DNA of 64,000 nucleotides from assembly GCF_009914755.1 (NCBI RefSeq), contig NC_060932.1; one strand, given 5' to 3'. Both the position numbers and the translations under genes were made by a program. The DNA comes from the human T2T-CHM13v2.0 reference genome, Homo sapiens. Within the stretch, counting starts at the first letter, position 1, and each line of letters begins with the position of its first letter. Under the pieces are notes generated by a model, which was not told where the DNA came from, did no database searches, and worked only from the letters and a program-made list of their open reading frames with translations. Shown here piece by piece: positions 1-35,490 of this stretch.

Positions 1-680
1 TTTTACACTGTTGGTGGGACTGTAAACTACTTCAACCATTGTGGAAGTCAGTGTGATGATTCCTTAGGGATCTAGAACTGGAAATACCATTTGACCCAGC
101 CATCCCATTACTGGGTATATACCCAAAGGACTATAAATCATGCTGCTATAAAGACACATGCACACGTATGTTTATTGCGGCATTATTCACAATAGCAAAG
201 ACTTGGAACCAACCCAAATGTCCAACAATGATAGACTGGATTAAGAAAATGTGGCACATATACACCATGGAATGCTATGCAGCCATAAAAAATGATGAGT
301 TCATGTCCTTTGTAGTGACATGGATGAAATTGGAAATCATCATTCTCAGTAAACTATCGCAAGAACAAAAAACCAAACACCGCATATTCTCACTCATAGG
401 TGGGAATTGAACAATGAGATCACATGGACACAGGAAGGGGAATATCACACTCTGGGGACTGTTGTGGGGTGGGGGGAGTGGGGAGGGATAGCAATGGGAG
501 ATATACCTAATGCTAGATGACGAGTTAGTGGGTGCAGTGCACCAGCATGGCACATGTATACATATGTAACTAACCTGCACAATGTGCACATGTACCCTAA
601 AACTTAAAGTATAATTAAAAAAAAAAATTCAAAAAATAAAGAAATAAATAAAGTTCCATATCAACTTAAAAAAAAAAAAA
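1..680 (+). mobile_element. L1PA2-like LINE-1, 3' end (ORF2 C-terminus to 410, 3'UTR, poly(A)); continues off the left edge
   Basis: ORF 168-410 is the L1 ORF2p C-terminus (...KTKHRIFSLIGGN). 3'UTR has GATGACGAGTTAG (GAG, not the L1HS ACA/ACG diagnostic) together with young-type GAGATCACA, GAATATCAC and GCACAATGTG. Confidence 0.9.
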
Positions 681-684
681 GAAT

Positions 685-797
685 CTATTGGTGCCTTGAT
701 CTTGAACTTCCCAGAGTATAACTGTGAGAAATAAATTTCTATTGTTTATAAGCCACCCAGTCTAAGGTATGTTGTTATAACAGAACAAACTAAAACA
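685..797 (+). mobile_element. MLT1 (ERVL-MaLR) LTR, 3' fragment
   Basis: CCTTGATCTTGAACTTCCCAG...AACTGTGAGAAATAAATTTCT...TTTATAAGCCACCCAGTCT is the typical MLT1 3' end. Confidence 0.75.
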
Positions 798-799
798 CA

Positions 800-2050
800 C
801 CTCCACCCTAAACACTGTCCCGAACTCCAGACTCAGGTATTCAGTTGCCTACTAGCATTTCCCCTTGGATCTCTAAGTGATGACTCAAACTTAACTTGCC
901 CTAAACTGGACTTTTGATCTTTGCCCCAAACCTGTGCCACTCAAAGTTTTCTTCATCTCAGTTAAATCAACTCCATTCTTCTATACTTAGAATCTTCCTG
1001 GATACCTCCTTTATTTTCATATCCCATATATGACTCATTAGTAAAGCTATTTAGTCTACCTTTTGACAATATCCAGAATCCAATCACTTTTCACCACTGC
1101 AACCACCACTACTCTACTCTAAAGCAAATGCAATCTTTTGCTTGATTTATTGTAATAGCTCCTAACTGACTTTGCTGCTTCCAGTCTTTCTCCTCTGTAA
1201 TCTATTGTCAACTCAGTCGTAGGAGCAAGCTTGTGTGTTCTAAATCCTCTGTATTAGTTTTCCTAGGGCTGCCATTATAAATCACCACAAATTGAGTGGC
1301 TTAAAACAACTGAAATTGATTGTCTCGCAGTTCTAGAGCCTCGAAGTCTGAAATCAAGGTGTCAGCAGGGCCATGCTCTCTCTCAAGGCTCCAGGAGAGG
1401 ATCCTTCCTTGCCTCTTCCTAGATTCCAGCGGCAATCCTGGAATTCCTTGTAATTCCTTGGCTTGCAGCTGCATCACTCCAGTCTCTGCTCCCATCTTCA
1501 CATGGTGTTCCCCTCCCTGTGTGTCTGTGTCCAAATTTCCCTCTTCTTATAAAAACGTCAGTCACAGGATTAGGGCCCAACCTAGTTCAGTATGACTTCA
1601 TCTAAGCTTGATGACATCTTCAAAGGCTCCATTTCCAAATAAGGCCACATTCATAGGTACTAGGCGTTAGGACTTGAACATGTCTTTTCAGGAGACACAA
1701 TTCAACCCTCCACACCTGCCAACGCCTTCCTTACTCAAAGTTACTATAATGACCTCACACGTGTCTCCTCCATGTACTCTATGAATTCATCTCAAAGTGC
1801 TCACAATCTATCTCCATCATACTGGGCATATTCTCTCCTGGGGACACTTGTACCTGCTCTGCTCCTTTTGCCTCATGTCCTCTTTTCCAAGACAATTCTG
1901 CATTCTTCATCTTCATCCTCTTTCAGATCTTCAGTCTCCTTCTCCGCAAACCTCCCTGACCATCCTACTTAAAATTCCTCCACTACCTCCTCATCTGACA
2001 TTCTGCATCCCTATTCTAGGCACTATTTTTCTCTTCTTGATTAGGTACTA
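800..2050 (+). mobile_element. L2 LINE remnant interrupted by MLT1C
   Basis: CCCGAACTCCAGACTC...TGCCTACT...CTCAAACTTAAC...ATCCAGAATCCAATCACTTTTCACCAC resembles the L2a 3' region; resumes after 1714. Confidence 0.65.
1250..1714 (-). mobile_element. MLT1C-like MaLR solo LTR
   Basis: TG...CA termini (TGTATTAGTTT...CCCTCCACA); GAAGTCTGAAATCAAGGTGTCAGCAGGGCCATGCTC motif; about 465 bp. Confidence 0.8.
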
Positions 2051-2774
2051 ACTGTTACCATCCTCATTTCACAGTAAGCTCAAGTATCTTGCTCAAGATC
2101 ACAGAGCTAGAAAATGAAAAAGCCAAATCTCTGCAAGCTTACTCTAGAGTTTGTATTCTTACCTAGTGTTTTATAGAGTCTCTTAATGACTATTTTCTAT
2201 AGCTAATTTATTACCCACTTGGCTAGGATGTAAAGGCCCAGGCTTAGTGACAATCGACAGATGTCCTACCAAGGATAAACTGTACCTTGCCACAGTTTTT
2301 AAATTTTTCTTTGTCAACATTCGTAAAAGTCTGATTTTCAGTGAAAGATTCAACGTGGAAATTCTGAGCATGAGGGTATAAATCAGTATTTTCATTTTCT
2401 TTGACTAGTGATCCAGGAGGCTGACTGAGCAATAAATCAAGGAGAATTTATGTTTTATTGAGTCCCCATCATGTCTAAACACTGGGGGGTCCTGGGGCCT
2501 ACAGAACAGCACAGACCCATAGTTAAATCATTTATTTCACCAAGCAATATTGTTTCTACAAATCAATCAGAAATCATTATCAATAGCACCATTTCTAAAC
2601 AAAGTCTTGTTTATTGGTGTGATGTCACCCTGATACACTTATTTATTTGCATGATATGACACACACTCATACACATTTATTTATTTGCCTGATACTGTAT
2701 CCCCCCCCCAAAAAAAAAATGGTCAGCCATGCCTGAAGAGATTTCTGGGAATTACCCAAAGCTACAATAATATT

Positions 2775-2950
2775 CATAATAACAGTTACCATTCATTGAG
2801 TACTGCCCATGCACTAGTGACTGTGAAAAGTGCTTTTGATGTATTGCTAATTTAATTTCCATAACAACACTGAGGCAGGTATTTTATCTCTGCTTTCCAG
2901 ATGAAGAAACTAAGCATTTAGGAGATTCACTAACCTTGCCCAATGTCAGT
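2775..2950 (-). mobile_element. MIR SINE
   Basis: Reverse MIR core CAGATGAAGAAACTAAG...AACCTTGCCCAATGTCA. Confidence 0.75.
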
Positions 2951-4674
2951 CTGCCAGAAAGTCAGGATATTTTTTAAAAGTTCTAAAAGACTATAAAGGA
3001 GTACAACACAAAGATTGTTCAGTACACTTATTAATTTCCAGTGAAAAATATGCATGGAGCAGTCAAGAATATTTATGTTGGCTAGCTGCATGCACAGTCT
3101 TCTCTTGAAGAACGTCTACATTGGCAACCATATCACTATCAGACATGGTGTTTGTGAACATCAGGACATTCGTCTCTTGGGCAGTCCTCAAAAGGCACAC
3201 AGAATCTTGCATTTTCTCTACTTAGTGTAAATCATAAATCATCACCTTTCCATTATTTTGCAATTCACCTCACATTCTTTCCACTACAATTGCAAAGATG
3301 ATGGTTTTATTTCTATCAGTTAGAATACAGTTATATTTTCCAGGAGGACACTGACCATCTTGATTGAATTTGGGAACACCTGGCCTCTAGATAAGCCACA
3401 CATAATATACCCCTCACTCCCGGACAGCAGGCTTACAAGCTTCTGTGGCCCCAACTGACTGGTTCAGGTAGCTAATCTCATCAGATCTGTATTGATTCTG
3501 ATTATCTTCAATACAGAGTGGTTGGTTTATTATATCTGTGTCCAAAATATCTGAGGGTGCACATTTTTTTAGAGACTGTGGGTCTCCTGTACTGACCTCA
3601 TCTCATAACTAAGAATCACCATTTTTTAATATAGAAAAAATTAAAATATGCTAACAAGTCTGAATTTTGTTTTATAACAAATTTGTTATAAAACAAATTT
3701 GTACTGTACTGTTTTATAACAAATTTACAAACAGTTTTTCTTTTGCTAGAGGGAGATAAAATAAACCTCTTCACAGACCTATGGCCTTTAAAACACATAG
3801 GTCAGTTACCAGGGCTTCCTCAATAAATGTGAGCTTCCCAGGATTACATCCTATCTTACTTATTACTATATTCTGCACACCTATCAAGAAGGTTGGCACT
3901 TAACAGTTCTCAATGCACACCTAGAAACTGGATGCAACTAACTCCAGCCCCTGCCCAAATCAGCCATGTGGAGTTTCTCCACATTTTTTATAACCACCAA
4001 GAGAGCAAGCACTGGCGGACAGAGAGATGACACTAAAGAGGTACACTTATGGATTTTTTTTTAATCTCTGAAAAAAAAGAAAGAAAGGTATTATACAAAG
4101 CTGGACAGAATTTCTGTCTTAAAGTCAAGTGCCTAAGAGTATAAAGCCCTCCTATCTCAATAGTTTCATATCAGTTATTTTTCTTGAAGTAAGTAGGGAA
4201 ATTATCTAATTCTCATTTTATAGAAATAGAGAATACCAAATTTAACCAAGTTGATTCAAGTCACACAACTCATTGGTGGCATGGCTGGGACCAAAAACGA
4301 GGTCCCTGGCTATCGTTCCTTGTTTTATTCTATTAATAACATCCTGAGCAAGCAAATAAAGGGCTTGTAGAAGAGAGGCGATAAATGTGGTTGTAAGCAG
4401 TCAGGGTCTGCGCATTTTTGGCCTAAAGCACTTTCCATTAGTTGTGTGTAGCTGACTCACACTCTTAACTAACACTGGCTCCCCAACTGAACAAGCCAAC
4501 ATAACTGCAACTTGTTCTTTTTGCCTCTTACAGAACATTTATTTGAGGTAATCTCCAAACAGTCATCTGGGAAAAAAAAAATTTTTTGACTTTAAACAAA
4601 TCCTGCAAGCCTCTTGTTATCTCCAGTAGAGGTCTGGGCTGTCAGAAAGGGTACAAAATAAAATCCAACTTTGA

Positions 4675-4835
4675 TTGAGAACTTAGAATGTGCCAGGCAA
4701 AGTCTAAGAATATTACACATACGACCTCATTGAATTTTCAGAAGAACCCAGAGGTAGGTACTAGTCTTGGTCTCACTTAACAGATAAGGAAAATAAGGCC
4801 AGAGAGAGCTAAGATTTGAACCCTGGGAATCTTGC
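4675..4835 (-). mobile_element. MIR SINE
   Basis: GTGCCAGGCA...ACAGATAAGGAAAATAAGGCCAGAGAG...GATTTGAACCC. Confidence 0.65.
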
Positions 4836-4847
4836 TCCCAAACTATA

Positions 4848-5460
4848 CAGTAGTTCTCTTTTAACCATGGTTTTACTTTTTGCAGTTTCAGCTACCTGAC
4901 ACTAACTGCAGTCTGAAAACATTAAATGGAAAAATTCAAGAAATAAACAATTTATAAGTTTTTTATTTCATGCATTTCTGAGTAGTGTGATGAAATCTGA
5001 GACTGTCCTGCTCCATCTCGCCCAGGATATTAATCTACCCTTTGTCCAGTGAACCTGCATTATAGATGCTACCACCCTGCCCTTAGTCATTTAGTAACCC
5101 TTTCAGTTATTAGCTCAACTGTCCTGGTGTCACAGTGCTTGTGTTCAAGTAATGCTTATTTGACTTAACAATGTCCCCAAAGCACAACATTAGTGATGCT
5201 GGCTGTTTGGATATACCAAAAAAGAAGCCATAAATTGCTTTCTTTAAGCAAGAAGGGAAAAGTTCTCAACAAGAGAAGAAAAAAAATTGCCTGCTTAAGT
5301 TGCTAAAATCTATGGTAAGGATGAATCTTCTGCCTGTGAAATTCTGAAGGAAAAAATCATGCATAATTTATACAGGCTTCAGTACTATCTTCAGTTTCAG
5401 GCCTCCGCTGGGGGGTCCTGGGACATATCCCCCATGAATAAGGGTGTGGAGGGGCTACTG
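4848..5460 (+). mobile_element. MER44-family (TcMar-Tigger) non-autonomous DNA transposon
   Basis: Terminal inverted repeats CAGTAG...CTACTG flanked by TA target duplications (4846-4847 and 5461-5462); internal MER44B-like sequence. Confidence 0.8.
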
Positions 5461-5467
5461 TATTCTT

Positions 5468-5782
5468 TTTCTTTATATTTATTTTATTATGCATTTATTT
5501 ACCTATTTTGAGACAGAGTCTAGCTCTGTCACCAAGGCTGGAGTGCAGTGGCATGATCTCAGCTCACTGCAATCTCTGCCTCCCAGATTCAAGCAATTCT
5601 CGTGTCTCAGCCTCCGAGTAGCTGGAATGACAGACGCCAGCCAGCACACCCAGCTGATTTTTGTATTTTTAGTAGGGATGGGGTTTCACTGTGTTGGCCA
5701 AGCTGGTCTCGAACTCCTAACCTCGTGATCCACCCGGGCTCCCAAAGTGCTGGGGTTACAAGTGTGAGCCACCGCACCTGGC
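5468..5782 (-). mobile_element. AluS SINE
   Basis: Full dimeric Alu, antisense. TSD TACTGTATTCTT duplicates the MER44 right terminus. Confidence 0.92.
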
Positions 5783-5914
5783 TTACTGTATTCTTGAATG
5801 TTACAGTAATATGCCTTTATATTCCTAGCAGTTAGCCTATTACTCAACTAAATCTTCTATTCTTATTTTTAGCCCTTGCCTCTCCCCTGGAGAAAAACAT
5901 ATGAGTCCTTTGAG

Positions 5915-6790
5915 AGCATTCATCCATTCATATGTTCACTCTTTTAATAAATTCTTCATTTATTTGTTCAGCAAACATTTCTGAGAAGTGGCATACTCTT
6001 GGGTAGATTCTGGGGATATAAGGACTGAACATTGCCCTTTCTTTTAAAAAGCATGTAATCTGGCAGATAAGGTGGACAAATAACATTGATACATGGTGAT
6101 ATTATGCTGTGGTACTAAGGAAGCACCCAGGAGAAATATGAACCCCAGAGTAAGGTAAGAAGATAAGTCAGGATTCAGGATGGGGAAGCATCTAGCTGTC
6201 TTAGAGGAACTACCATAGATTTTATGGATGAAGAACATTGATAATGGCACTTCAAACACAGGGGGAAAACTATGAAAAAACAAAAAAAAAATTTACCATT
6301 AGAAAACTGCAATAATTCCGTAGAATATAGGTCAAAAAAGGCAAGTGGGTAACAGGTCACAAAAGACCTTGATAGTCATATTAAGGGACACACATGTTCT
6401 TAGACTGTTTGTGGCAGAAAGTCGATGGAGGGATTAAAGAGACAAGCAACATAATACATTAGAATTTTTTTTAAATGACTCTATCTCAATAAGAAGAATA
6501 GACTAGAAAGGGTAAAAATAGAGGGAGGGTATCAAGGTAGGACATGTGTGCAGCAATCCAAACATGAAATAATAATGATGGAATGTCCTAAAGCAATGGC
6601 AGTAAGAATGTTGAGACGGGAAGTAGATTCTGGACATATTAGAGAGAGAAAGTCAACAAGTCTGAGAATGGTTAGATGTGCTGTACAAGGTACTCATATA
6701 CTGGTTGGGCAGTGTACCCTTCATTGACATGGGACGGGGCACAGGAGAACATATGAGTGGAAGGAGAAAGATGAAAACCTCTAATTTTGT
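5915..6790 (-). mobile_element. L2 LINE remnant (3' end at left)
   Basis: CATTCATCCATTCA tail, CAGCAAACATTTCTGAG, and a purine-rich antisense L2 body. Confidence 0.6.
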
Positions 6791-10481: not shown

Positions 10482-10800
10482 ATTATTATTATTATTATTT
10501 AAAACTGAGTTTTAATAATAAAACAAGAGTTTGCTCTGTTGCCCAGGCTGCAGTGCAGTGGCACGATCTCGGCTCACCGCAACCTCCACCTCCCGGGTTC
10601 AAGCAATTCTCCTGCCTCACCTCCCGAGTTGCTGGGACTACAGGCGTGTGCCACCATATCCGGTTAATTTTTGTACTTTTAGCAGAGACGGGGTTTTGCC
10701 ATGTTGGCCAGGCTGGTCTCTAAATCCTGACCTCAGGTGATCCACCCACCTTGGCCTCCCAAAGTGCTGGGATTACAGACATAGGCCACTGCACCTGGCC
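10482..10800 (-). mobile_element. AluS SINE with (TTA)n tail
   Basis: Antisense Alu; TSD CTCGAACACTTTA / CTCAAACACTTTA. Confidence 0.92.
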
Positions 10801-12439: not shown

Positions 12440-12860
12440 CTGTCATTTGTTAACTCGTGTGGGTTTGAACCCTAGCTCCAGGAGTATACAAATGGTGTTC
12501 ACTTGTGCAAATTATTTAACCTCTGTATGTCTCCATAGCCTCTTCTGTAAAGTAGAAAAACAGTAGTCACCTCACAGAATTATTGAGGTTTAATAAGATA
12601 ATGAATATCAAGTTCTTGTCAGAGACGTCTGTAGAAAGCAATGGTTAATAATGCAGACTCTGGCCCAAGAATGGCTAAGTTTTAAACTTGACCCTCACAC
12701 TATCTGTGAAATTTTCTTAACTTCTTTTAGCCTCAGTTTTCTCTTTAGAAATATGGAGATGGTAAATAATAGTAGCATTGTTGTGTGGATAACATTAGTT
12801 AATTCATGTGATTGAGAAAAGTGCCTAATGCATGACAAATGCTCAAAAATATTAGTTGTT
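12440..12860 (+). mobile_element. Two adjacent MIR SINEs
   Basis: Two cores: TTTAACCTCTGTATGTCTC...CTGTAAAGT and GCCTCAGTTTTCTC...AATATGGAGAT. Confidence 0.65.
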
Positions 12861-14546
12861 ATTAGATTTCCTTAAAATGTTACTTGGAAAGCATCCAGGG
12901 CTGTGGAAATAGGGTTTGCTTTCAATTGTTTGCTTAGCTTTCTCCCATAACAAATAGAATGAGAAAGATTCTCCCTTTTTTTCTCTTCCTGTCAGTATCC
13001 CTCTTGTCTAAACCCATTTTCTCTGCTCTCAGAAGAAAGGAGGTATACTTGCTTTGGTGGTGGTGGAAAGGGGAGGGGTGCACATTAGGCTTGCATCCTG
13101 ACCCACCTGTCTAGCAATATCCCCAGAATGCAGTGTGCACTGCCATGAAAGCTGGGAAACCAGACATTTGCAAGCACATGCGTTTCCCTGAGTGGTGTTA
13201 CAAAGGATTCTACTTTATCTTGACTGCATTTTAGAGGTCTTAGATTTCATCTTTATTCATGGGATCAAAAAGTATGGCTTCCAATGCCAGGGTGCAGTTG
13301 TCTGTGGCTCAGCACTTGACAAAGGTGATTTTACTGGATGATGAATCTTACTGAATGTTACAACTAACAACGCTATTGTATGTAAGTAGATGGGGTTTGA
13401 TGTACAGCCAGATGTACCAATCCTGAGAAAAGACAATGCTGCATTGCATTATCAATTTAATAAAGCATGTGCTGTCAGTAATATTTATTTCATTAAAAAA
13501 TACATATGGTTGCTGATACAGTTTTTTGAATTGTGGCATATTGAGTCCTTGAACTCACAGATTCAGTTATATCAACATGAGCATCTTGTACAAATGTTAG
13601 CCTTGCCCACTCACCACCCTAGTGGAAAAGGCTACTGAAAAAGCAGGTCTAGTTGCCTGAAACGTCTGCCTGTCTATTTGAAAGGAGGAATTGAAGTGGG
13701 TTGAATAAGTAGAGAGACAGGTGGGTGGAAAGTAATAAGAAACTAGGTTTAGCTAGAAAGCGATTTCCTAAAGAACTTTTACTCTCATTGGTGTTCATCG
13801 TCCATAAAACTTGGCCTTATTTCCAGAGAAAAAGAATTAATGATCATGTGAAATTGGATGTCTGTCAATTTTTCTTAAGTTTCTCAGCAGCAAAACTTGT
13901 TCTTCACCCAAGTGTAACTGCTATTTGGTCAAGGTAAGACAACTTTCTATGTGTCTAATTCACTGTGTGTTATTCATGCTAAGAATGCAGTACAGGACTC
14001 TTTATATTAACTGAACAATCAGATGGTAAAAGAATCACTTTGGCCATTTGCTGTGTGAAGTTCAGGAACATTTTTTGATAAAATAAGTAATTCCATATGC
14101 ATGTGAATTCTTAGTATTTGATTCCTGTTTCTCTTGTAATGTCCTTGGTCTTTTGTCTTTTGAATCAATTAGGTCAGTCTCAAGGGAATACAAAAAGAAA
14201 AAGAAAGAAAGAAAAACAGACCATAGTTTAAGCCAGAACACTCTAATACTGTCCACTCAACATATGGTGTTTATAGATCTTGAAAACAGAATGAGGAGGA
14301 ATGCTTCAGGAATGCTCCCTACATGGTTTTAATTTGTTCATGTTTTAAGTCTTTGGTTCTGGAGTAGTTCTTATTACAGTGAATAAAATGGTTAGTGAAA
14401 TGAGGGTAAAATATCATAATTATGTTCCTTAAATAAGACTTGTATGTCCCCTGTGGTATGCAAATATGCCACTTTTTACTCTTTTTGTTTTTTTAAAAAA
14501 GAAAATGTTAGAAGAAGGTCAGATTTGCTAAGGATAGAGGACTTAC

Positions 14547-14765
14547 CTGATAATTCTGCACCTCTTCTAAGACACAATGTGAGAAGCTGCTGCATGGAGG
14601 TAGAGCTACCTTAAAATTCTTTGCTCTGAGCCAGGGCAGTACTGCTGGCCTTTGACTCCACAGGAATGTCCGCCCTCTGTCCAAACCTTCTTGGTCCAGA
14701 CAGCCCAGCACAGATGGCATGAGTGTTTCTGCCGAGCCAGCCGGCAAGAACAGGCAGGCGGACAT
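14547..14765 (-). other. Candidate 219-nt internal exon of a minus-strand (probably non-coding) transcript
   Basis: Minus-strand acceptor TTCCCTCCTGGCCTTCACCTGCAG|A and consensus donor CAG|GTAAGT (intron starts 14546); open frame of 73 codons. Confidence 0.55.
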
Positions 14766-14918
14766 CTGCAGGTGAAGGCCAGGAGGGAATCACGACTGGA
14801 AGGTCACTGAAAGTCGATGCACAGAAAGGCTGTTTCCCCGGCAGCAGAAATTACCCTGTAAGACCTCTGCAGGTCCTCATAGGCAGTAGGCCAAGAGCGA
14901 CGGACGCTGCATACTTAC

Positions 14919-15170
14919 GCAGCCCTTAGAAGGGGATCCTGCACCTGGTGTCTATTAAAATCCAAAACACCTGAGTCACATCTGACTCTAAGATTATAAC
15001 AAGCTTCCACCTAAGGTTCTGAGTGCCATACTGCCCTAGGAATGGGTCTGTTAGCACATTAAAATCACATGGAAAGTGTTTTAAAAACCCAGTGCCCAAG
15101 CTATACTCCAGAACAATTAAGTCATCATCTCCGGGGGTGGATAACAGCATTATCTACCTCTAAACAGTTC
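14919..15170 (-). other. Candidate 252-nt minus-strand exon containing a MER5A fragment
   Basis: Acceptor TTCCTTTCTGTTTGAGCCTTGTCCTCTGCAG|G and donor TGC|GTAAGT (14918), giving a 153-nt intron to the next candidate exon. Confidence 0.4.
15045..15150. mobile_element. MER5A (hAT-Charlie) fragment
   Basis: GCACATTAAAATCACATGG...CCAGAACAATTAAGTCATCATCTCCGGGGGTGG. Confidence 0.6.
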
Positions 15171-15548
15171 CTGCAGAGGACAAGGCTCAAACAGAAAGGA
15201 ACACTCCTCAAAGCACAAAGCTATGGTGTTTTCTGATATGCTGTGTTAAGGGAGGCAGAGGCTGAGCTCTGGACACCCAAAATTAAAACTTGAACCGGTG
15301 GCTATAGAGATGTTATTTTCTCTTAAGAAATCGTATGTTAAGGAATAGAGAACTTTAGTTTCCTCATATGTAAAATAAGATAATTGGATAAATTGATCTC
15401 CAAGGTTCTCCCATTTCTATTTCCATAATCAAATGCTGGTGTAAAATTTCACACAGACTATTCTTTTCCTTTTTTGCCAAAATGTTCATTGATTTTTCTG
15501 ATGATTAAAAAATGAGAATATTGGAATTTTATGTTTTAAAGTGCCTCC

Positions 15549-15849
15549 CCTAACCATCATTCTCAGCAAACTAACACAGGAAAAGAAAACCAAACACCAC
15601 ATGTTCTCACTCATATGTGGGTGTTGAACAATGAGAACACACGGACACAGAGAGGGGAACATCACACACTGGGGCCTGTCAGGGGGGTGGGGGGCTAGAA
15701 GAGGGAGAGCATGAGGACAAATAGTAGATGACAGGTTAATGGGTGCAGCAAACCACCATGGCACGTGTATACCTATGTAACAAACCTGTACGTTCTGCAC
15801 GTATATCCAAGAACTTAAAGTATAATAATAAAAAAGTCAAAAAATAAAA
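15549..15849 (+). mobile_element. 5'-truncated L1PA (about PA8-PA10) 3' end
   Basis: L1PA 3'UTR plus A tail; TSD AAAGTGCCTCC at 15538-15548 and 15850-15860; TTTT/AAAG endonuclease site. Confidence 0.88.
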
Positions 15850-16454
15850 AAAGTGCCTCCGCCACATTTCCAAATATCACATAATAGTAAATGAAACATT
15901 TTAAAAAGTTAAAAAGCTATTCACCACTTCTGTTCAAAATTGTATGCAAGGTCCTAACCGGTACAACAAAAGAAGAAAAAAAATTAAAGAATACAGTTAA
16001 AAATAAAAAAAAAACTACTTATATTCACAAATGACATGATTGTCTACATTTTAAAAATCCAAAAATATACGAAAAAGACAACTATATTTAATAACTGAGT
16101 TTGGGATATGAGGTCTTGGTATATAAGAACAATATACAAATATCAATTATATTTTTGTATAAAAGCAAGGAAAAAATCACAAATTTTTTAAAGTATAATT
16201 TAAAATTACATCAAAAACACCAACTACTTAGATATAAATTTAACAAAATCTGCACAAGATTTGTATGTTAAAACTACAAAATATTGATAAGAAAAATTAA
16301 AAATCTTTGATGTTCATGGATTACAAAGCTCAAAGTTGTCAAGATGTAAATTGTCCCTAAATTGATCTACAGATTCAATGCAATTTCAATATCCAAGCAG
16401 GCTTTTGTAAAAACTGAAAGGCAGATCCTAACATTTATGTGAAAAAGCAAAAGA

Positions 16455-17334
16455 AGGGTGGAGCCAAGATGGCCAAATAGGAACAGCTCCGGTCTACAGC
16501 TCCCAGCAGAAGATGGGTGATTTCTGCATTTCCATCTGAGGTACCGGATTCATCTCACTAGGGAGTGCCAGACAGTGGGCGTAGGTCAGTGGGTGCGCGC
16601 ACCCTGTGTAAGCTGAGGCAGGGCGAGGCATTGCCTCACTTGGGAAGTGCAAGGGGTCAGGGAATTCCCTTTCCTTGTCAAAGAAAGAGGTGACAGACGG
16701 CACCTGGAAAATCGGGTCACTCCAACCCGAATACTGCGCTTTTCTGACGGACTTCAAAAATGGCGCACCAGGAGATTATATCCCACACCTGGCTCGGAGG
16801 GTCCTATGCCCACAGAGTCTCGCTGATTGCTAGCACAGCAGTCTGAGATCAAACTGCAAGGTGGCAGCCAGGCTGGAGGAGGGGCGCCGCCATTGCCCAG
16901 GTTTACTTAGGTAAACAAAGTAGCCAGGAAGCTGGAACTGGGTGGAGCCCACCGCAGCTCAAGGAGGCCTGCCTGCCTCTGTAGGCTCCACCTCTGGACA
17001 CAGACAAACAAAAAAACAGCAGTAACCTCTGCAGACTTAAATGTCCCTGTCTGACAGCTTTGAAGAGAGCAGTGGTTCTCCCAGCATGCAGATGGAGATC
17101 TGAGAATGGGCAGACTGCGTCCTCAGGTGGGTCCCTGACCCCCGAGCAGCCTAACTGGGAGGCACCCCCCAGCAGGGGCACACTGACCCCTCACATGGCC
17201 GGGTACTCCAACAGACCTGCAGCTGAGGGTCCTGTCTGTTAGGAGGAAAACTAACAAACAGAAAGGACATCCACACCAAAAACCCATCTGTACATCACCA
17301 TCATCAAAGACCAAAAGTAGATAAAACCACAAAG
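16455..17334. promoter_or_regulatory. L1 5'UTR bidirectional (sense plus antisense) promoter
   Basis: Intact YY1 motif CAAGATGGC near the 5' end; CpG-rich; antisense splice donors CAG|GTGTGG (16788) and CAG|GTGCCG (16703) intact. Confidence 0.75.
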
Positions 17335-18350
17335 ATGGGAAAAAAACAGAGCAGAAAAACTGGAAACTCTAAAAAGCAGAGCGCCTCTCCTCCTCCAAAG
17401 GAATGCAGTTCCTCACCAGCAACGGAACAAAGGTGGATGAAGAATGACTTTGACGAGCTGAGAGAAGAAGGCTTCAGATGATCAAATTACTCCGAGCTAC
17501 GGGAGGACATTCGAACCAAAGGCAAAGAAGTTCAAAACTTTGAAAAAAATTTAGAAGAATGTATAACTAGAATAACCAATACAGAGAAGTGCTTAAAGGA
17601 GCTGATGGAGCTGAAAACCAAGGCTCGAGAACTACATGAAGAATGCAGAAGCCTCAGGAGCCGATGCGATCAACTGGAAGAAAGGATATCAGTGATGGAA
17701 GATGAAGTGAATGAAATGAAGCGAGAAGGGAAGTTTTGAGAAAAAAGAATAAAAAGAAACGAGCAAAGCCTCCAAGAAATATGGGACTATGTGAAAAGAC
17801 CAAATCTATGTCTGATTGGTGTACCTGAAAGTGACGGGGAGAATGGAACCAGTTGGAAAACACTCTGCAGGATATTATCCAGGAGAACTTCCCCAATCTA
17901 GCAAGGCAGGCCAACATTCAGATTCAGGAAATGCAGAGAACACCACAAAGATACTCCTCGAGAAGAGCAGCTCCAAGACACATAATTGTCAGATTCACCA
18001 AAGTTGAAATGAAGGAAAAAATGTTAAGGGCAGCCAGAGAGAAAGGTCGGGTTACCCACAAAGGGAAGCCCATCAGACTAACAGCGGATCTATGGGCAGA
18101 AACTCTACAAGCCAGAAGAGAGTGGGGGCCAATATTCAACATTCTTAAAGAAAAGAATTTTCCACCCAGAATTTCATATCCAGCCAAACTAAGCTTCATA
18201 AGTGAAGGAGAAATAAAATACTTTACAGACAAGCAAATGCTGAGAGATTTTGTCACCACCAGGTCTGCCCTAAAAGAGCTCCTGAAGGAAGCACTAAACA
18301 TGGAAAGGAACAACCGATACCAGCCGCTGCAAAATCATGCCAAAATGTAA
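17335..18350 (+). pseudogene. L1 ORF1p, disrupted
   Basis: Starts MGKKQSRK...; TGA at codon 49 (17479-17481), TGA at 17737-17739, and a 1-bp deletion near 17851; C-terminal part read by ORF 17853-18350. Confidence 0.93.
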
Positions 18351-18413
18351 AGGCCTTCGAGACTAGGAAGAAACTGCATGAACTAACGAGCAAAATAACC
18401 AGCTAACATCATC

Positions 18414-22240
<3,827 letters not shown>

Positions 22241-22679
22241 ACAATGAGAACACATGAACACAGGAAGGGGAACATCACACTCTGGGGACTGTTGTGGGGT
22301 GGGGGGAGAGGGGAGGGATAGCATTGGGAGATATACTTAATGCTAGATGGCGAGTTAGTGGGTGCAGCGCACCAGCACAGTACATGTATACATATGTAAC
22401 TAACCTGCACATTGTGCACATGTACCCTAAAACTTAAAGTATAATAATAATAAATTAAAAAAAAAGAAAGAAAGAAAAAGCAAAAGACATAGACTAACCA
22501 AAACAATTTTGGAAAAACAACAACAAAGTTGACTGATTCACACTACAAGATTTAAAGACTTAGAAATCAGGACAGTGTGGCATGAGACTTTCAGAACTAG
22601 GTGAGGGCCGGAGGATATGGATTGAAGGAGGCACCTGAACCATACCACACACGGCTCACACAGTAGGAAGGGACCCCAT

Positions 22680-34222: not shown

Positions 34223-35323
34223 TTTTTCCAGGAGAAATAACTTTGTTTGGACTGAGAGCTGGAGAACGAGAATAGGACCTGAGACAGCATATTGGGCTAA
34301 GGAGGAGAGGTGAGTTTCCTAAATGGCAGTCAAAGCTCATCGACCGAACGGACTCTACTTCCCAGCAACCTTGCAGTTAGTGCAACCAACAAAAGGCCTG
34401 CTGAGGAATGTATTTGCCACTAAATTCCCCAAATATGCCAACACTACAAAAAAGACGGAGGCTTTTTGTTATAATTAAATTTCCACAAACCTCCCCAATC
34501 ACAAGTATTATAAGAGGAAGTAAAAAAATCACATTTTACAGATCTCAAGCTTGTCTTCAACATTTAGTTCATCATCTTAAAGAAATAACTCCCCTGCTAA
34601 ACTCATTAGCTATAGGATCTATCCAAGCAGCAAGAAGATGGCCATGCCATGGCAATCCTCTTCCCATCTTCCCTAGCCACTCAGGGCTGAAGAGCAAGGT
34701 GAGGCTCAGGTGGGGGTAGGGGTGGAGAGCCCAAGGGCTACTTTTCCCCAGTAGATCATGGCATCTGAAGCTAGATGGGAGAGCAGAACTGATGAGACTT
34801 GAGGGAAGGGTCCAGGGCCTGTATTCAGTCAGAGTCACTGCTGGAAGAGGAGGAGGAAGGGGAGGAGGAATGCTTGGCATGCTTGTGGTGCTTGTAGTGC
34901 TTGTGTACCTTTTTAGGAAATTTCTTCATTTTCTTCTGAATCTTCTTGTCCACTATCACTCCTGGTCCAACCATGTCAGGAGCCAAGGGATTCACAGGAG
35001 GCATTCCAGGGGCAGGAGGGGGTGTGAAAGAGGGTGGGGAACCAAGGGTTGGCATCCTGGATACTGTGGCTGTGGCACAGGATGAGGGGCTCCACTTGGG
35101 GGAAAAGTTGGATTGCCCTGCAGAGCTCCTCAGGGAGGAGGAAAGGGGCCTGGGGAAAGGGTGGATTGATAGGTGGTGGGTGGGCAGGATTGGGCCTCCA
35201 GGGTACCCAATGTTGGGAGAATATAGATTTGGCCCTGGCTGCCCGGCATTGGGATTCCACGTGTTTAGATGTGTCCTCCAGCCCCATCACCTTTCCACCA
35301 CCACCTAGGCTTGGTGCGTTCTG
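34223..35323 (-). pseudogene. PRR13: Processed pseudogene of PRR13 (proline-rich 13 / TXR1)
   Basis: Intronless; translations WNPNAGQPGPN, NPAHPPPINPPF and PPVNPLAPDMVGPGVIVDKKIQKKMKK...SSSSSDSD*; start ATG>ACG at 35260-35262; frameshifts; short poly(A); TSD GTTATTTCTTT at 34212-34222 and 35324-35334. Confidence 0.95.
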
Positions 35324-35490
35324 GTTATTTCTTTCTCCTTTTCCTTACAGGACAAGAATCGAGAGAGAAAAATTCTTCCTCAATTTACCACATCAAAAAA
35401 TGATCCACACATATATGTTCTCGAAATAGTAATTGCTACTGTCTGCCTTCCCTCAATACAGCAGATGAAATGTTAAATTAAAGAAGCTTT

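What the first reader, a model, noticed from the sequence alone, without database searches (positions are those of the whole stretch)
14541..16950. L1 antisense promoter pointing into a chain of strong minus-strand splice sites: candidate L1-driven chimeric lncRNA
Seen on the minus strand: L1 antisense donors CAG|GTGTGG (16788) and CAG|GTGCCG (16703); acceptor ...TTGTCCTCTGCAG|G (exon starts 15170); donor TGC|GTAAGT (14918); acceptor ...CCTTCACCTGCAG|A (exon starts 14765); donor CAG|GTAAGT (14546). These alternate correctly, giving exons of 252 and 219 nt with a 153-nt intron. Known: young L1PA 5'UTRs fire antisense and splice from these donors into upstream sequence. Inference: a spliced minus-strand transcript driven by the L1 ASP and/or the local CpG-rich patch.
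Basis: partly seen in the sequence, partly recalled or inferred. Interest (0 to 1): 0.7.

Follow-up and report, generated by a model that had tools for sequence, protein, structure and literature searches.

The report
L1PA3 antisense promoter facing cryptic exons
An old, inactive human L1 element carries the usual backward-facing promoter and splice donors, and two good-looking exons lie just beyond it, but nothing shows that they are transcribed, so this is an ordinary candidate of a well-known kind.

Summary
Observation confirmed. All six minus-strand sites sit exactly where stated, giving exons of 252 and 219 nt and an intron of 153 nt.

The L1 is a full-length, plus-strand L1PA3 (3.5% diverged) with 14-bp target-site duplications. 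ORF1 and ORF2 are broken and ORF0 stops after 14 codons. Its two antisense donors are family features: the CAG|GT is at the same place in 10 of 12 (first donor) and 12 of 12 (second) L1 5'UTR copies compared. Reviews state that ORF0 holds two donors that splice into flanking exons.

The flank's splice chain is better than usual but not exceptional. It is equalled or beaten in 2 of 39 matched L1 flanks and 9 of 300 shuffles. Exon 14765-14547 ranks 5th of 706 candidate exons in the window.

No expression evidence could be obtained. The L1 is listed as promoter-bearing, but no chimera from it appears among 1677 brain and glioma chimeras, nor in the EST catalogue. RefSeq has no gene here.

Verdict: a plausible latent L1-driven noncoding transcript by a known mechanism, unproven. 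Interest is low.

The parts
16456..22473 (+). Full-length L1PA3 with an A-rich tail. It is coding-dead: ORF1 has an in-frame stop at 17479-17481, and ORF2 is split into open frames of 376 and 876 aa.
   Evidence: Sequence read; ORF list. Pinson et al. Table S1 has the row hg19 chr8:92903590-92909589, +, L1PA3, 35 per mille diverged. The mapping T2T minus 112,865 is checked by a second anchor at window 627.
16441..16454 (.). 5' target-site duplication, 14 bp. Its partner is at 22474-22487.
   Evidence: The same 14-mer is read on both sides of the element.
16456..17334 (+). L1 5'UTR, 879 nt. It holds the sense promoter and, on the other strand, the antisense-promoter region.
   Evidence: The ORF1 ATG is at 17335. 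Criscione et al. place antisense starts of L1HS and L1PA2-8 within the first 600 bp of the 5'UTR (passages).
16975..16993 (-). Exact match to the 19-nt target of sgL1ASP #1, the guide that activated the L1 antisense promoter in PMC7746726. It marks a conserved promoter core.
   Evidence: 1 match and 0 of 100 shuffles with a match. Guide sequence and effect from the passages.
16849..16893 (-). Remnant of ORF0: the ATG at 16893-16891 is followed by a stop after 14 codons. The rest of the ORF0-like frame lies in another frame.
   Evidence: A review gives ORF0 as 70 aa.
16783..16791 (-). First L1 antisense donor, CAG|GTGTGG. The intron starts at 16788.
   Evidence: Matrix score 6.0, rank 36 of 6476. 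CAG|GT is at the same place in 10 of 12 L1 5'UTR copies, this one included.
16698..16706 (-). Second L1 antisense donor, CAG|GTGCCG. The intron starts at 16703.
   Evidence: Matrix score 2.2, rank 283 of 6476. The motif is present in 12 of 12 L1 5'UTR copies.
15552..15850 (+). Old 5'-truncated L1 3' end. Its antisense strand offers two competing acceptors, with exon starts at 15694 and 15675.
   Evidence: direct repeat, 76-83% identical to the two other L1 3' ends in the window; acceptor scores 5.9 and 6.5.
14919..15170 (-). Candidate exon of 252 nt. No frame is open along its whole length. Bases about 15054-15137 are an old interspersed-repeat fragment.
   Evidence: four other genomic places match at 76-88% identity.
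14766..14918 (-). Candidate intron of 153 nt, running from GTAAGTAT to CACCTGCAG.
14547..14765 (-). Candidate exon of 219 nt. It is unique sequence and is open in frame 1 from an ATG at its first base.
   Evidence: 5th of 706 candidate exons; no paralogue.
14541..14549 (-). Perfect consensus donor, CAG|GTAAGT.
   Evidence: the only copy in the window; rank 2 of 6476.
14721..14920 (.). Small CpG-enriched patch: 10 CpGs, GC 0.57, observed/expected 0.62.
   Evidence: Three 200-bp intervals in the window pass the test. The other two lie in stretches that the hub table marks as masked repeat: 10501-10700 and the L1 5'UTR.
13252..13422 (-). My own addition: a possible last exon, with an acceptor at 13422 (score 7.2) and AATAAA at 13257-13252.
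   Evidence: This is inference only.

Best explanation
The locus is a latent L1 chimeric-transcript unit of the ordinary kind.

The L1PA3 inserted in the plus orientation. It can no longer retrotranspose, but it keeps the 5'UTR, with the antisense-promoter region and the two family-wide antisense donors.

Inferred route, if the promoter fires (the reviews cited say this usually needs loss of methylation or a permissive, transcribed neighbourhood):

1. RNA polymerase II starts around 16,850-17,050 on the minus strand.
2. The transcript splices from 16789 or 16704 to 15170, the strongest acceptor on that strand in the next 7 kb.
3. It leaves that exon at 14919, or at the weaker donors that end the exon at 14945 or 14971.
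4. It enters at 14765 and leaves at the perfect donor after 14547.
5. It probably ends in an exon that starts at 13422, with AATAAA at 13257.

The product would be noncoding: ORF0 is cut short, and the exon frames have no relatives.

Shown: the sites, the L1 anatomy, that the donors are family features, and the relative strength of the sites. Inferred: that the promoter fires here, and that these junctions are used.
For: - Exact sites.
- L1PA3 with the antisense-promoter region, listed in Pinson Table S1.
- A guide target in the promoter region conserved 19 of 19.
- Donors shared by 10 of 12 and 12 of 12 copies.
- Print: ORF0 holds two donors that splice to flanking exons, and antisense activity is found in L1PA1-8.
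- 15170 is the top acceptor, and 14546 the top donor, on the minus strand between 17100 and 9000. Only one weak ATTAAA (16092) lies between the L1 and 15170.
- The flank's best chain is reached in 2 of 39 matched L1 flanks and 9 of 300 shuffles.
- The only CpG-enriched 200-bp patch in the window that lies outside the repeat stretches listed by the hub overlaps the intron and the start of the second exon.
Against: - No RNA data could be consulted.
- No chimera from this L1 appears among the 1677 chimeras of 3 brain and 8 glioma samples. No number beginning 9290 occurs in Table S2.
- It is not in the EST and PacBio catalogue of Criscione et al., although that method needed an annotated gene exon.
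- RefSeq annotates no gene here (hub table).
- In Pinson et al., 635 intergenic L1s produced chimeras against 5359 that never did, which is about 11%.
- The chain is not exceptional within the window, 113th of 8858, and the locus was chosen by eye.
- Donor 16703 is weak by the matrix.
- My matrix uses recalled frequencies.
Confidence: 0.4

Rival explanations
1. Chance constellation. The L1 donors are real family features, but the two 'exons' are just strong-looking motifs in unique intergenic DNA. No stable spliced RNA is made from them.
For: - The window has no annotated spliced gene, yet holds 706 candidate exons and 113 chains at least as good.
- 2 of 39 other L1 flanks do as well. With 9123 promoter-bearing L1PA1-8 elements, that would mean hundreds of such loci.
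- Single motifs are within expectation.
- The locus is absent from two catalogues and from RefSeq.
- The open frame of exon 2 is not unusual: 7.8% of GC-matched 219-nt segments are open in frame 1 and 23% in some frame.
Against: - The flank is in the top 3-5% by every measure.
- The CpG-enriched patch sits exactly there.
- Strong sites downstream of a promoter tend to be used whenever that promoter is on (general knowledge).
Confidence: 0.35
2. The exons are real but are not driven by the L1. The transcript would start either in the CpG-enriched patch or the stretch 14,920-15,200, or further upstream on the minus strand. In the second case the L1 5'UTR is crossed or exonised through acceptor 16872 and donor 16788, with read-through downstream of RUNX1T1 as one possible source.
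For: - The CpG patch at 14721-14920.
- The L1 antisense strand has a good acceptor at 16872 (score 7.5), which with donor 16788 makes an 84-nt candidate exon ranked 3rd of 706.
- Criscione et al. had to filter out L1 exonisation as a confounder.
- RUNX1T1 lies upstream on the same strand (hub table).
Against: - The patch fails every 400-bp island window.
- The RUNX1T1 3' end is about 63 kb away.
- No annotation and no RNA data.
Confidence: 0.2
3. The exons encode a small protein: the 85-aa frame from 14765, or the 74-aa frame 15150-14926.
For: The ATG is the first base of exon 2, and the frame stays open through all 219 nt.
Against: - 0 Pfam families at E up to 1 for either frame.
- No paralogue in the genome. 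The best other matches have E 0.12 and 0.18 and contain stops.
- The open frame is within chance.
- The 74-aa frame ends inside exon 1.
Confidence: 0.02

Closest known systems
L1 antisense-promoter chimeric transcripts (LCTs): Speek 2001 and Nigumann 2002 (seen only in reference lists); Criscione 2016, PMC4908685 (abstract, passages, supplements searched); Pinson 2022, PMC9396940 (passages, Tables S1 and S2)
   Same: A full-length L1PA1-8 element with the antisense-promoter region, antisense donors in the 5'UTR, and flanking unique sequence with acceptors in the right order and strand.
   Different: No transcript is shown here. The partner is not an annotated gene exon. The locus is absent from both catalogues searched.
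ORF0 and ORF0-fusion transcripts (Denli 2015; not held here, known only through the reviews PMC4859970 and PMC13517631, passages read)
   Same: Both donors lie within the ORF0 stretch downstream of the ORF0 ATG at 16893.
   Different: ORF0 of this copy stops after 14 codons, so any spliced product is noncoding with respect to ORF0.
L1-derived lncRNAs in pluripotent and neural cells (Garza 2023, PMC10619931; Adami 2025, PMC12791003; search listings and abstract openings only)
   Same: A hominoid-age L1 5'UTR as a possible promoter of a noncoding RNA.
   Different: Membership is unknown.
L1 antisense exonisation and 'gene-breaking' (named in PMC4859970, passage read)
   Same: Acceptor 16872 with donor 16788, and acceptors 15694 and 15675 in the antisense strand of the L1 3' fragment.
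   Different: It needs a transcript coming from upstream, and none is known here.

Membership tests
L1 antisense-promoter chimeric transcript (LCT) | L1PA1-8 element that retains the antisense-promoter part of the 5'UTR (Pinson criterion: repStart below 400 and repEnd above 600) | tested here: met
   Row chr8:92903590-92909589, +, L1PA3, 126-6151 in Table S1. 5'UTR read. Guide target intact.
L1 antisense-promoter chimeric transcript (LCT) | Antisense splice donors of the 5'UTR are present | tested here: met
L1 antisense-promoter chimeric transcript (LCT) | Transcript 5' end inside the first 600 bp of the L1, antisense | not testable with these tools
   No CAGE, EST or long-read data are available here.
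L1 antisense-promoter chimeric transcript (LCT) | RNA that joins L1 5'UTR antisense sequence to flanking unique sequence | tested here: not met
   This was tested only in two catalogues. There are 0 rows with coordinates beginning 9290 in Pinson Table S2 and 0 in the 10 supplementary files of Criscione. The catalogues are limited to brain and glioma, and to ESTs that overlap gene exons, so absence is weak evidence.
ORF0 fusion | ORF0 open from its ATG to a donor | tested here: not met
   The stop comes after 14 codons, before both donors.
CpG-island promoter | At least 200 bp with GC at least 0.5 and observed/expected CpG at least 0.6. Stricter definitions need about 500 bp (criteria recalled). 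| tested here: inconclusive
   One 200-bp window, 14721-14920, passes (0.57, 0.62). No 400-bp window passes.
Protein-coding exon | Homology or a family match for the open frames | tested here: not met
Known structured RNA (Rfam) | Match to an Rfam model | tested here: not met
   0 matches at E up to 1 in 12500-17400.

The most novel reading that the evidence does not exclude
The L1PA3 insertion created a hominoid-specific noncoding gene about 63 kb downstream of RUNX1T1. It would have four exons (L1 5'UTR antisense, 15170-14919, 14765-14547, 13422 to about 13235) and be expressed in early embryo, germ line or tumours. The CpG-enriched patch would be kept unmethylated because the unit is used. 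The RNA, or the act of transcribing it, could affect the RUNX1T1 neighbourhood.
Probability: 0.07. Interest if true: 0.4.

Novelty: new member of a known kind. Interest (0 to 1): 0.2.

Why it matters
If the transcript exists, it adds one more entry to a list of well over a thousand L1 antisense chimeric transcripts. It would show how an L1 insertion can recruit pre-existing cryptic splice sites in unique DNA into a new noncoding gene. It would matter more only if the RNA were tissue-specific and influenced RUNX1T1. As it stands, this is a well-formed prediction of a textbook mechanism, not a surprise.

Tried and rejected
- **Coding reading.** The 85-aa and 74-aa frames have no Pfam match and no paralogue. 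The open frame is within chance.
- **Structured RNA.** Rfam gave nothing.
- **Repeat origin of the exons.** Only about 80 bp of exon 1 matches elsewhere in the genome, at 4 places with 76-88% identity. I recall it as resembling a MER5-type DNA-transposon fragment, which I did not test. The rest is unique.
- **Soft-masking.** I looked for it in the window file to get repeat bounds; there is none.
- **ORF0 fusion.** Rejected.
- **Exact conservation of the first donor.** An 11-mer or 15-mer search found it in only 3 of 12 copies. Looking at the aligned place showed that most copies have GTGCGG where this one has GTGTGG, and CAG|GT is kept in 10 of 12.
- **Earlier findings of this scan.** Not open.
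- **Papers not held.** Speek 2001 and Denli 2015.
- **Supplements not seen.** Locus lists from pluripotent and neural cells were therefore not seen and may bear on the claim.
- **Printed link to the neighbouring gene.** A search joining RUNX1T1 with L1 antisense terms (at least 2 of 4 terms) found 29 papers. None of the 15 listed holds RUNX1T1.
Full report
**1. The observation**

Reading the minus strand of 14300-17200 shows every site at the stated base.

- CAG|GTGTGG: the intron starts at 16788.
- CAG|GTGCCG: the intron starts at 16703.
- Acceptor ...TTGTCCTCTGCAG|G: the exon starts at 15170.
- TGC|GTAAGT: the intron starts at 14918.
- Acceptor ...CCTTCACCTGCAG|A: the exon starts at 14765.
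- CAG|GTAAGT: the intron starts at 14546.

The exon lengths (252 and 219 nt) and the intron length (153 nt) are right.

**2. The L1**

The element is full length and on the plus strand.

- A 14-bp target-site duplication flanks it, at 16441-16454 and 22474-22487.
- The 5'UTR is 16456-17334, and the ORF1 ATG is at 17335.
- ORF1 has an in-frame stop at 17479-17481. ORF2 is split into frames of 376 and 876 aa. The copy therefore cannot retrotranspose.
- Its 5'UTR is 88-92% identical to the 39 other genomic copies that were scored, out of 5999 candidates.

Table S1 of Pinson et al. 2022 (PMC9396940) is a RepeatMasker-derived list of 9123 L1PA1-8 elements that keep the antisense-promoter region. 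It has the row hg19 chr8:92903590-92909589, +, L1PA3, 35 per mille diverged, consensus positions 126-6151.

I reached that row by converting coordinates with a recalled position of RUNX1T1. The conversion (T2T minus 112,865) is confirmed by two anchors:

- The L1PA3 start falls at window 16456.
- The neighbouring row, an L1PA2 ending at hg19 92,887,762, predicts an L1 3' end at window 627. An L1 3' end with its A-run does end there.

**3. The antisense features of this copy**

- The ORF0 ATG is at 16893-16891. The frame stops after 14 codons. The rest of the ORF0-like reading lies in another frame, so ORF0 is disabled. A review gives intact ORF0 as 70 aa.
- At the homologous place in 12 L1 5'UTR copies (this one and 11 others), CAG|GT of the first donor is present in 10 and the second donor in 12. 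An exact 11-mer or 15-mer of the first donor is shared by only 3 of 12, because most copies have GTGCGG where this one has GTGTGG.
- Two reviews (passages read) state that ORF0 holds two splice donors, SD1 and SD2, that splice to acceptors in flanking sequence, and that such chimeras come from L1PA1-8.
- The 19-nt target of the guide that activated the antisense promoter about threefold in PMC7746726 (passages) is intact at 16975-16993.
- Criscione et al. 2016 place antisense starts of L1HS and L1PA2-8 in the first 600 bp of the 5'UTR (passages).

**4. The flank**

- The stretch 15552-15850 is an old, 5'-truncated L1 3' end on the plus strand. Its antisense strand offers acceptors at 15694 and 15675, scoring 5.9 and 6.5.
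- One ATTAAA (16092) is the only poly(A) hexamer between the L1 and 15170.
- 15170 (8.2) is the strongest acceptor, and 14546 (8.8) the strongest donor, on the minus strand from 17100 down to 9000.
- Downstream, an acceptor at 13422 (7.2) followed by AATAAA at 13257 would make a plausible last exon. This is my addition and is inferred only.
- About 80 bp of exon 1 (roughly 15054-15137) matches four other genomic places at 76-88% identity, so it is an old interspersed repeat. The rest of 14541-15200 is unique.
- The stretch 14721-14920 has 10 CpGs, GC 0.57 and observed/expected 0.62, against 0.17 for the whole window.
- It is one of three 200-bp intervals that pass the loosest island test. The other two lie in stretches the hub marks as masked repeat (10501-10700 and the L1 5'UTR). 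No 400-bp window passes.

**5. Is it more than chance?**

I scored sites with a position-weight matrix built from recalled frequencies. It is not MaxEntScan, and it undervalues TGC|GTAAGT, whose intron side pairs with U1 at +1 to +8 (general knowledge).

Single motifs are unremarkable:

- CAGGTAAGT occurs once against 0.54 expected.
- GGTAAGT occurs 4 times against 6.9 expected.
- GTAAGTAT occurs 5 times against 2.0 expected; 8 of 100 shuffles reach 5.

By the matrix, in the whole window and on both strands:

| Site | Rank |
|---|---|
| Donor 14546 | 2 of 6476 |
| Acceptor 15170 | 8 of 8567 |
| Donor 16788 | 36 of 6476 |
| Acceptor 14765 | 140 of 8567 |
| Donor 16703 | 283 of 6476 |
| Donor 14918 | 618 of 6476 |

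Exon 14765-14547 ranks 5th of 706 candidate exons, and the chain total is reached by 113 of 8858 chains.

As a matched control I took the 3-kb antisense flanks of all 39 other L1 5' ends returned. Two of them, L058 and L059, are identical duplicates. As a second control I made 300 dinucleotide shuffles of this flank.

| Measure | Controls at least as good | Shuffles at least as good |
|---|---|---|
| Best two-exon chain | 2 of 39 | 9 of 300 |
| Best exon | 3 of 39 | 9 of 300 |
| Best donor | 1 of 39 | 5 of 300 |
| Best acceptor | 4 of 39 | 18 of 300 |

The flank is therefore in about the top 3-5%. That is better than typical. With thousands of such L1s, and a locus chosen by eye, it is not evidence of function on its own.

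**6. Coding potential**

- An 85-aa frame starts at the first base of exon 2 and is open through the whole exon.
- A 74-aa frame (15150-14926) ends inside exon 1.
- Neither has a Pfam match at E up to 1. The 85-aa frame, the only one I searched in the genome, has no paralogue.
- Among GC-matched 219-nt segments of the window, 7.8% are open in frame 1 and 23% in some frame.
- Rfam finds nothing in 12500-17400.

Any product is best read as noncoding.

**7. Expression evidence**

None could be obtained with these tools.

- In Pinson et al., Table S2 lists 1677 chimeras from 3 brain and 8 glioma samples. It holds no number beginning 9290. All 6 occurrences are in Table S1.
- The 10 supplementary files of Criscione et al. 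hold none either. Their method required overlap with an annotated gene exon, so it would have missed this locus anyway.
- In Pinson et al., 635 intergenic L1s gave chimeras and 5359 never did. That is a prior of about 11% in those tissues.
- RefSeq on T2T has no gene here (hub table).
- None of the 15 listed papers, of 29 found, holds RUNX1T1 together with L1 antisense terms.
- Locus lists from pluripotent and neural cells (PMC10619931, PMC12791003) could not be opened.

**8. Reading**

What remains open is whether this promoter ever fires and whether these junctions are used. My estimates:

| Reading | Probability |
|---|---|
| Latent L1-driven noncoding chimeric transcript | about 0.4 |
| Chance constellation with no stable RNA | about 0.35 |
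| Real exons driven from elsewhere, with the L1 crossed or exonised through 16872/16788 | about 0.2 |
| Coding gene | about 0.02 |

**9. Novelty and verdict**

If real, it is a new member of a well-known kind. It is not in the two catalogues I could search.

Noticed in passing
window 34232-34309 (+): This is the strongest candidate exon of the whole window by my matrix (acceptor 10.7, donor 8.2). It lies just left of the pseudogene PRR13P7 (34628-35345, minus strand).
   Followed up: no
window 1-627 (+): This is the 3' end of a second full-length L1, which Pinson Table S1 lists as an L1PA2 at hg19 chr8:92881746-92887762. It is 97% identical over 300 nt to the L1PA3 at 21831-22130.
   Followed up: partly
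window 16789-16872 (-): Inside the L1 5'UTR, the antisense acceptor at 16872 and the donor at 16788 make an 84-nt candidate exon, ranked 3rd of 706. Any minus-strand transcript arriving from upstream could exonise the L1 through it.
   Followed up: partly
window 15552-15850 (+): An old, 5'-truncated L1 3' end with an A-rich tail lies between the full-length L1 and the candidate exons. Its antisense strand carries two moderate acceptors.
   Followed up: yes
window 5523-5724 and 10533-10734: These are direct repeats, 79% identical, probably two Alu copies. The stretch 10501-10700 also passes the 200-bp CpG test.
   Followed up: no
L058 (G000:C21:8313816-8316815) and L059 (G000:C13:11251760-11254759): Two L1 flanks, on contigs 21 and 13, gave identical scores in every measure. 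They are probably a duplicated segment. They count as one independent control.
   Followed up: no
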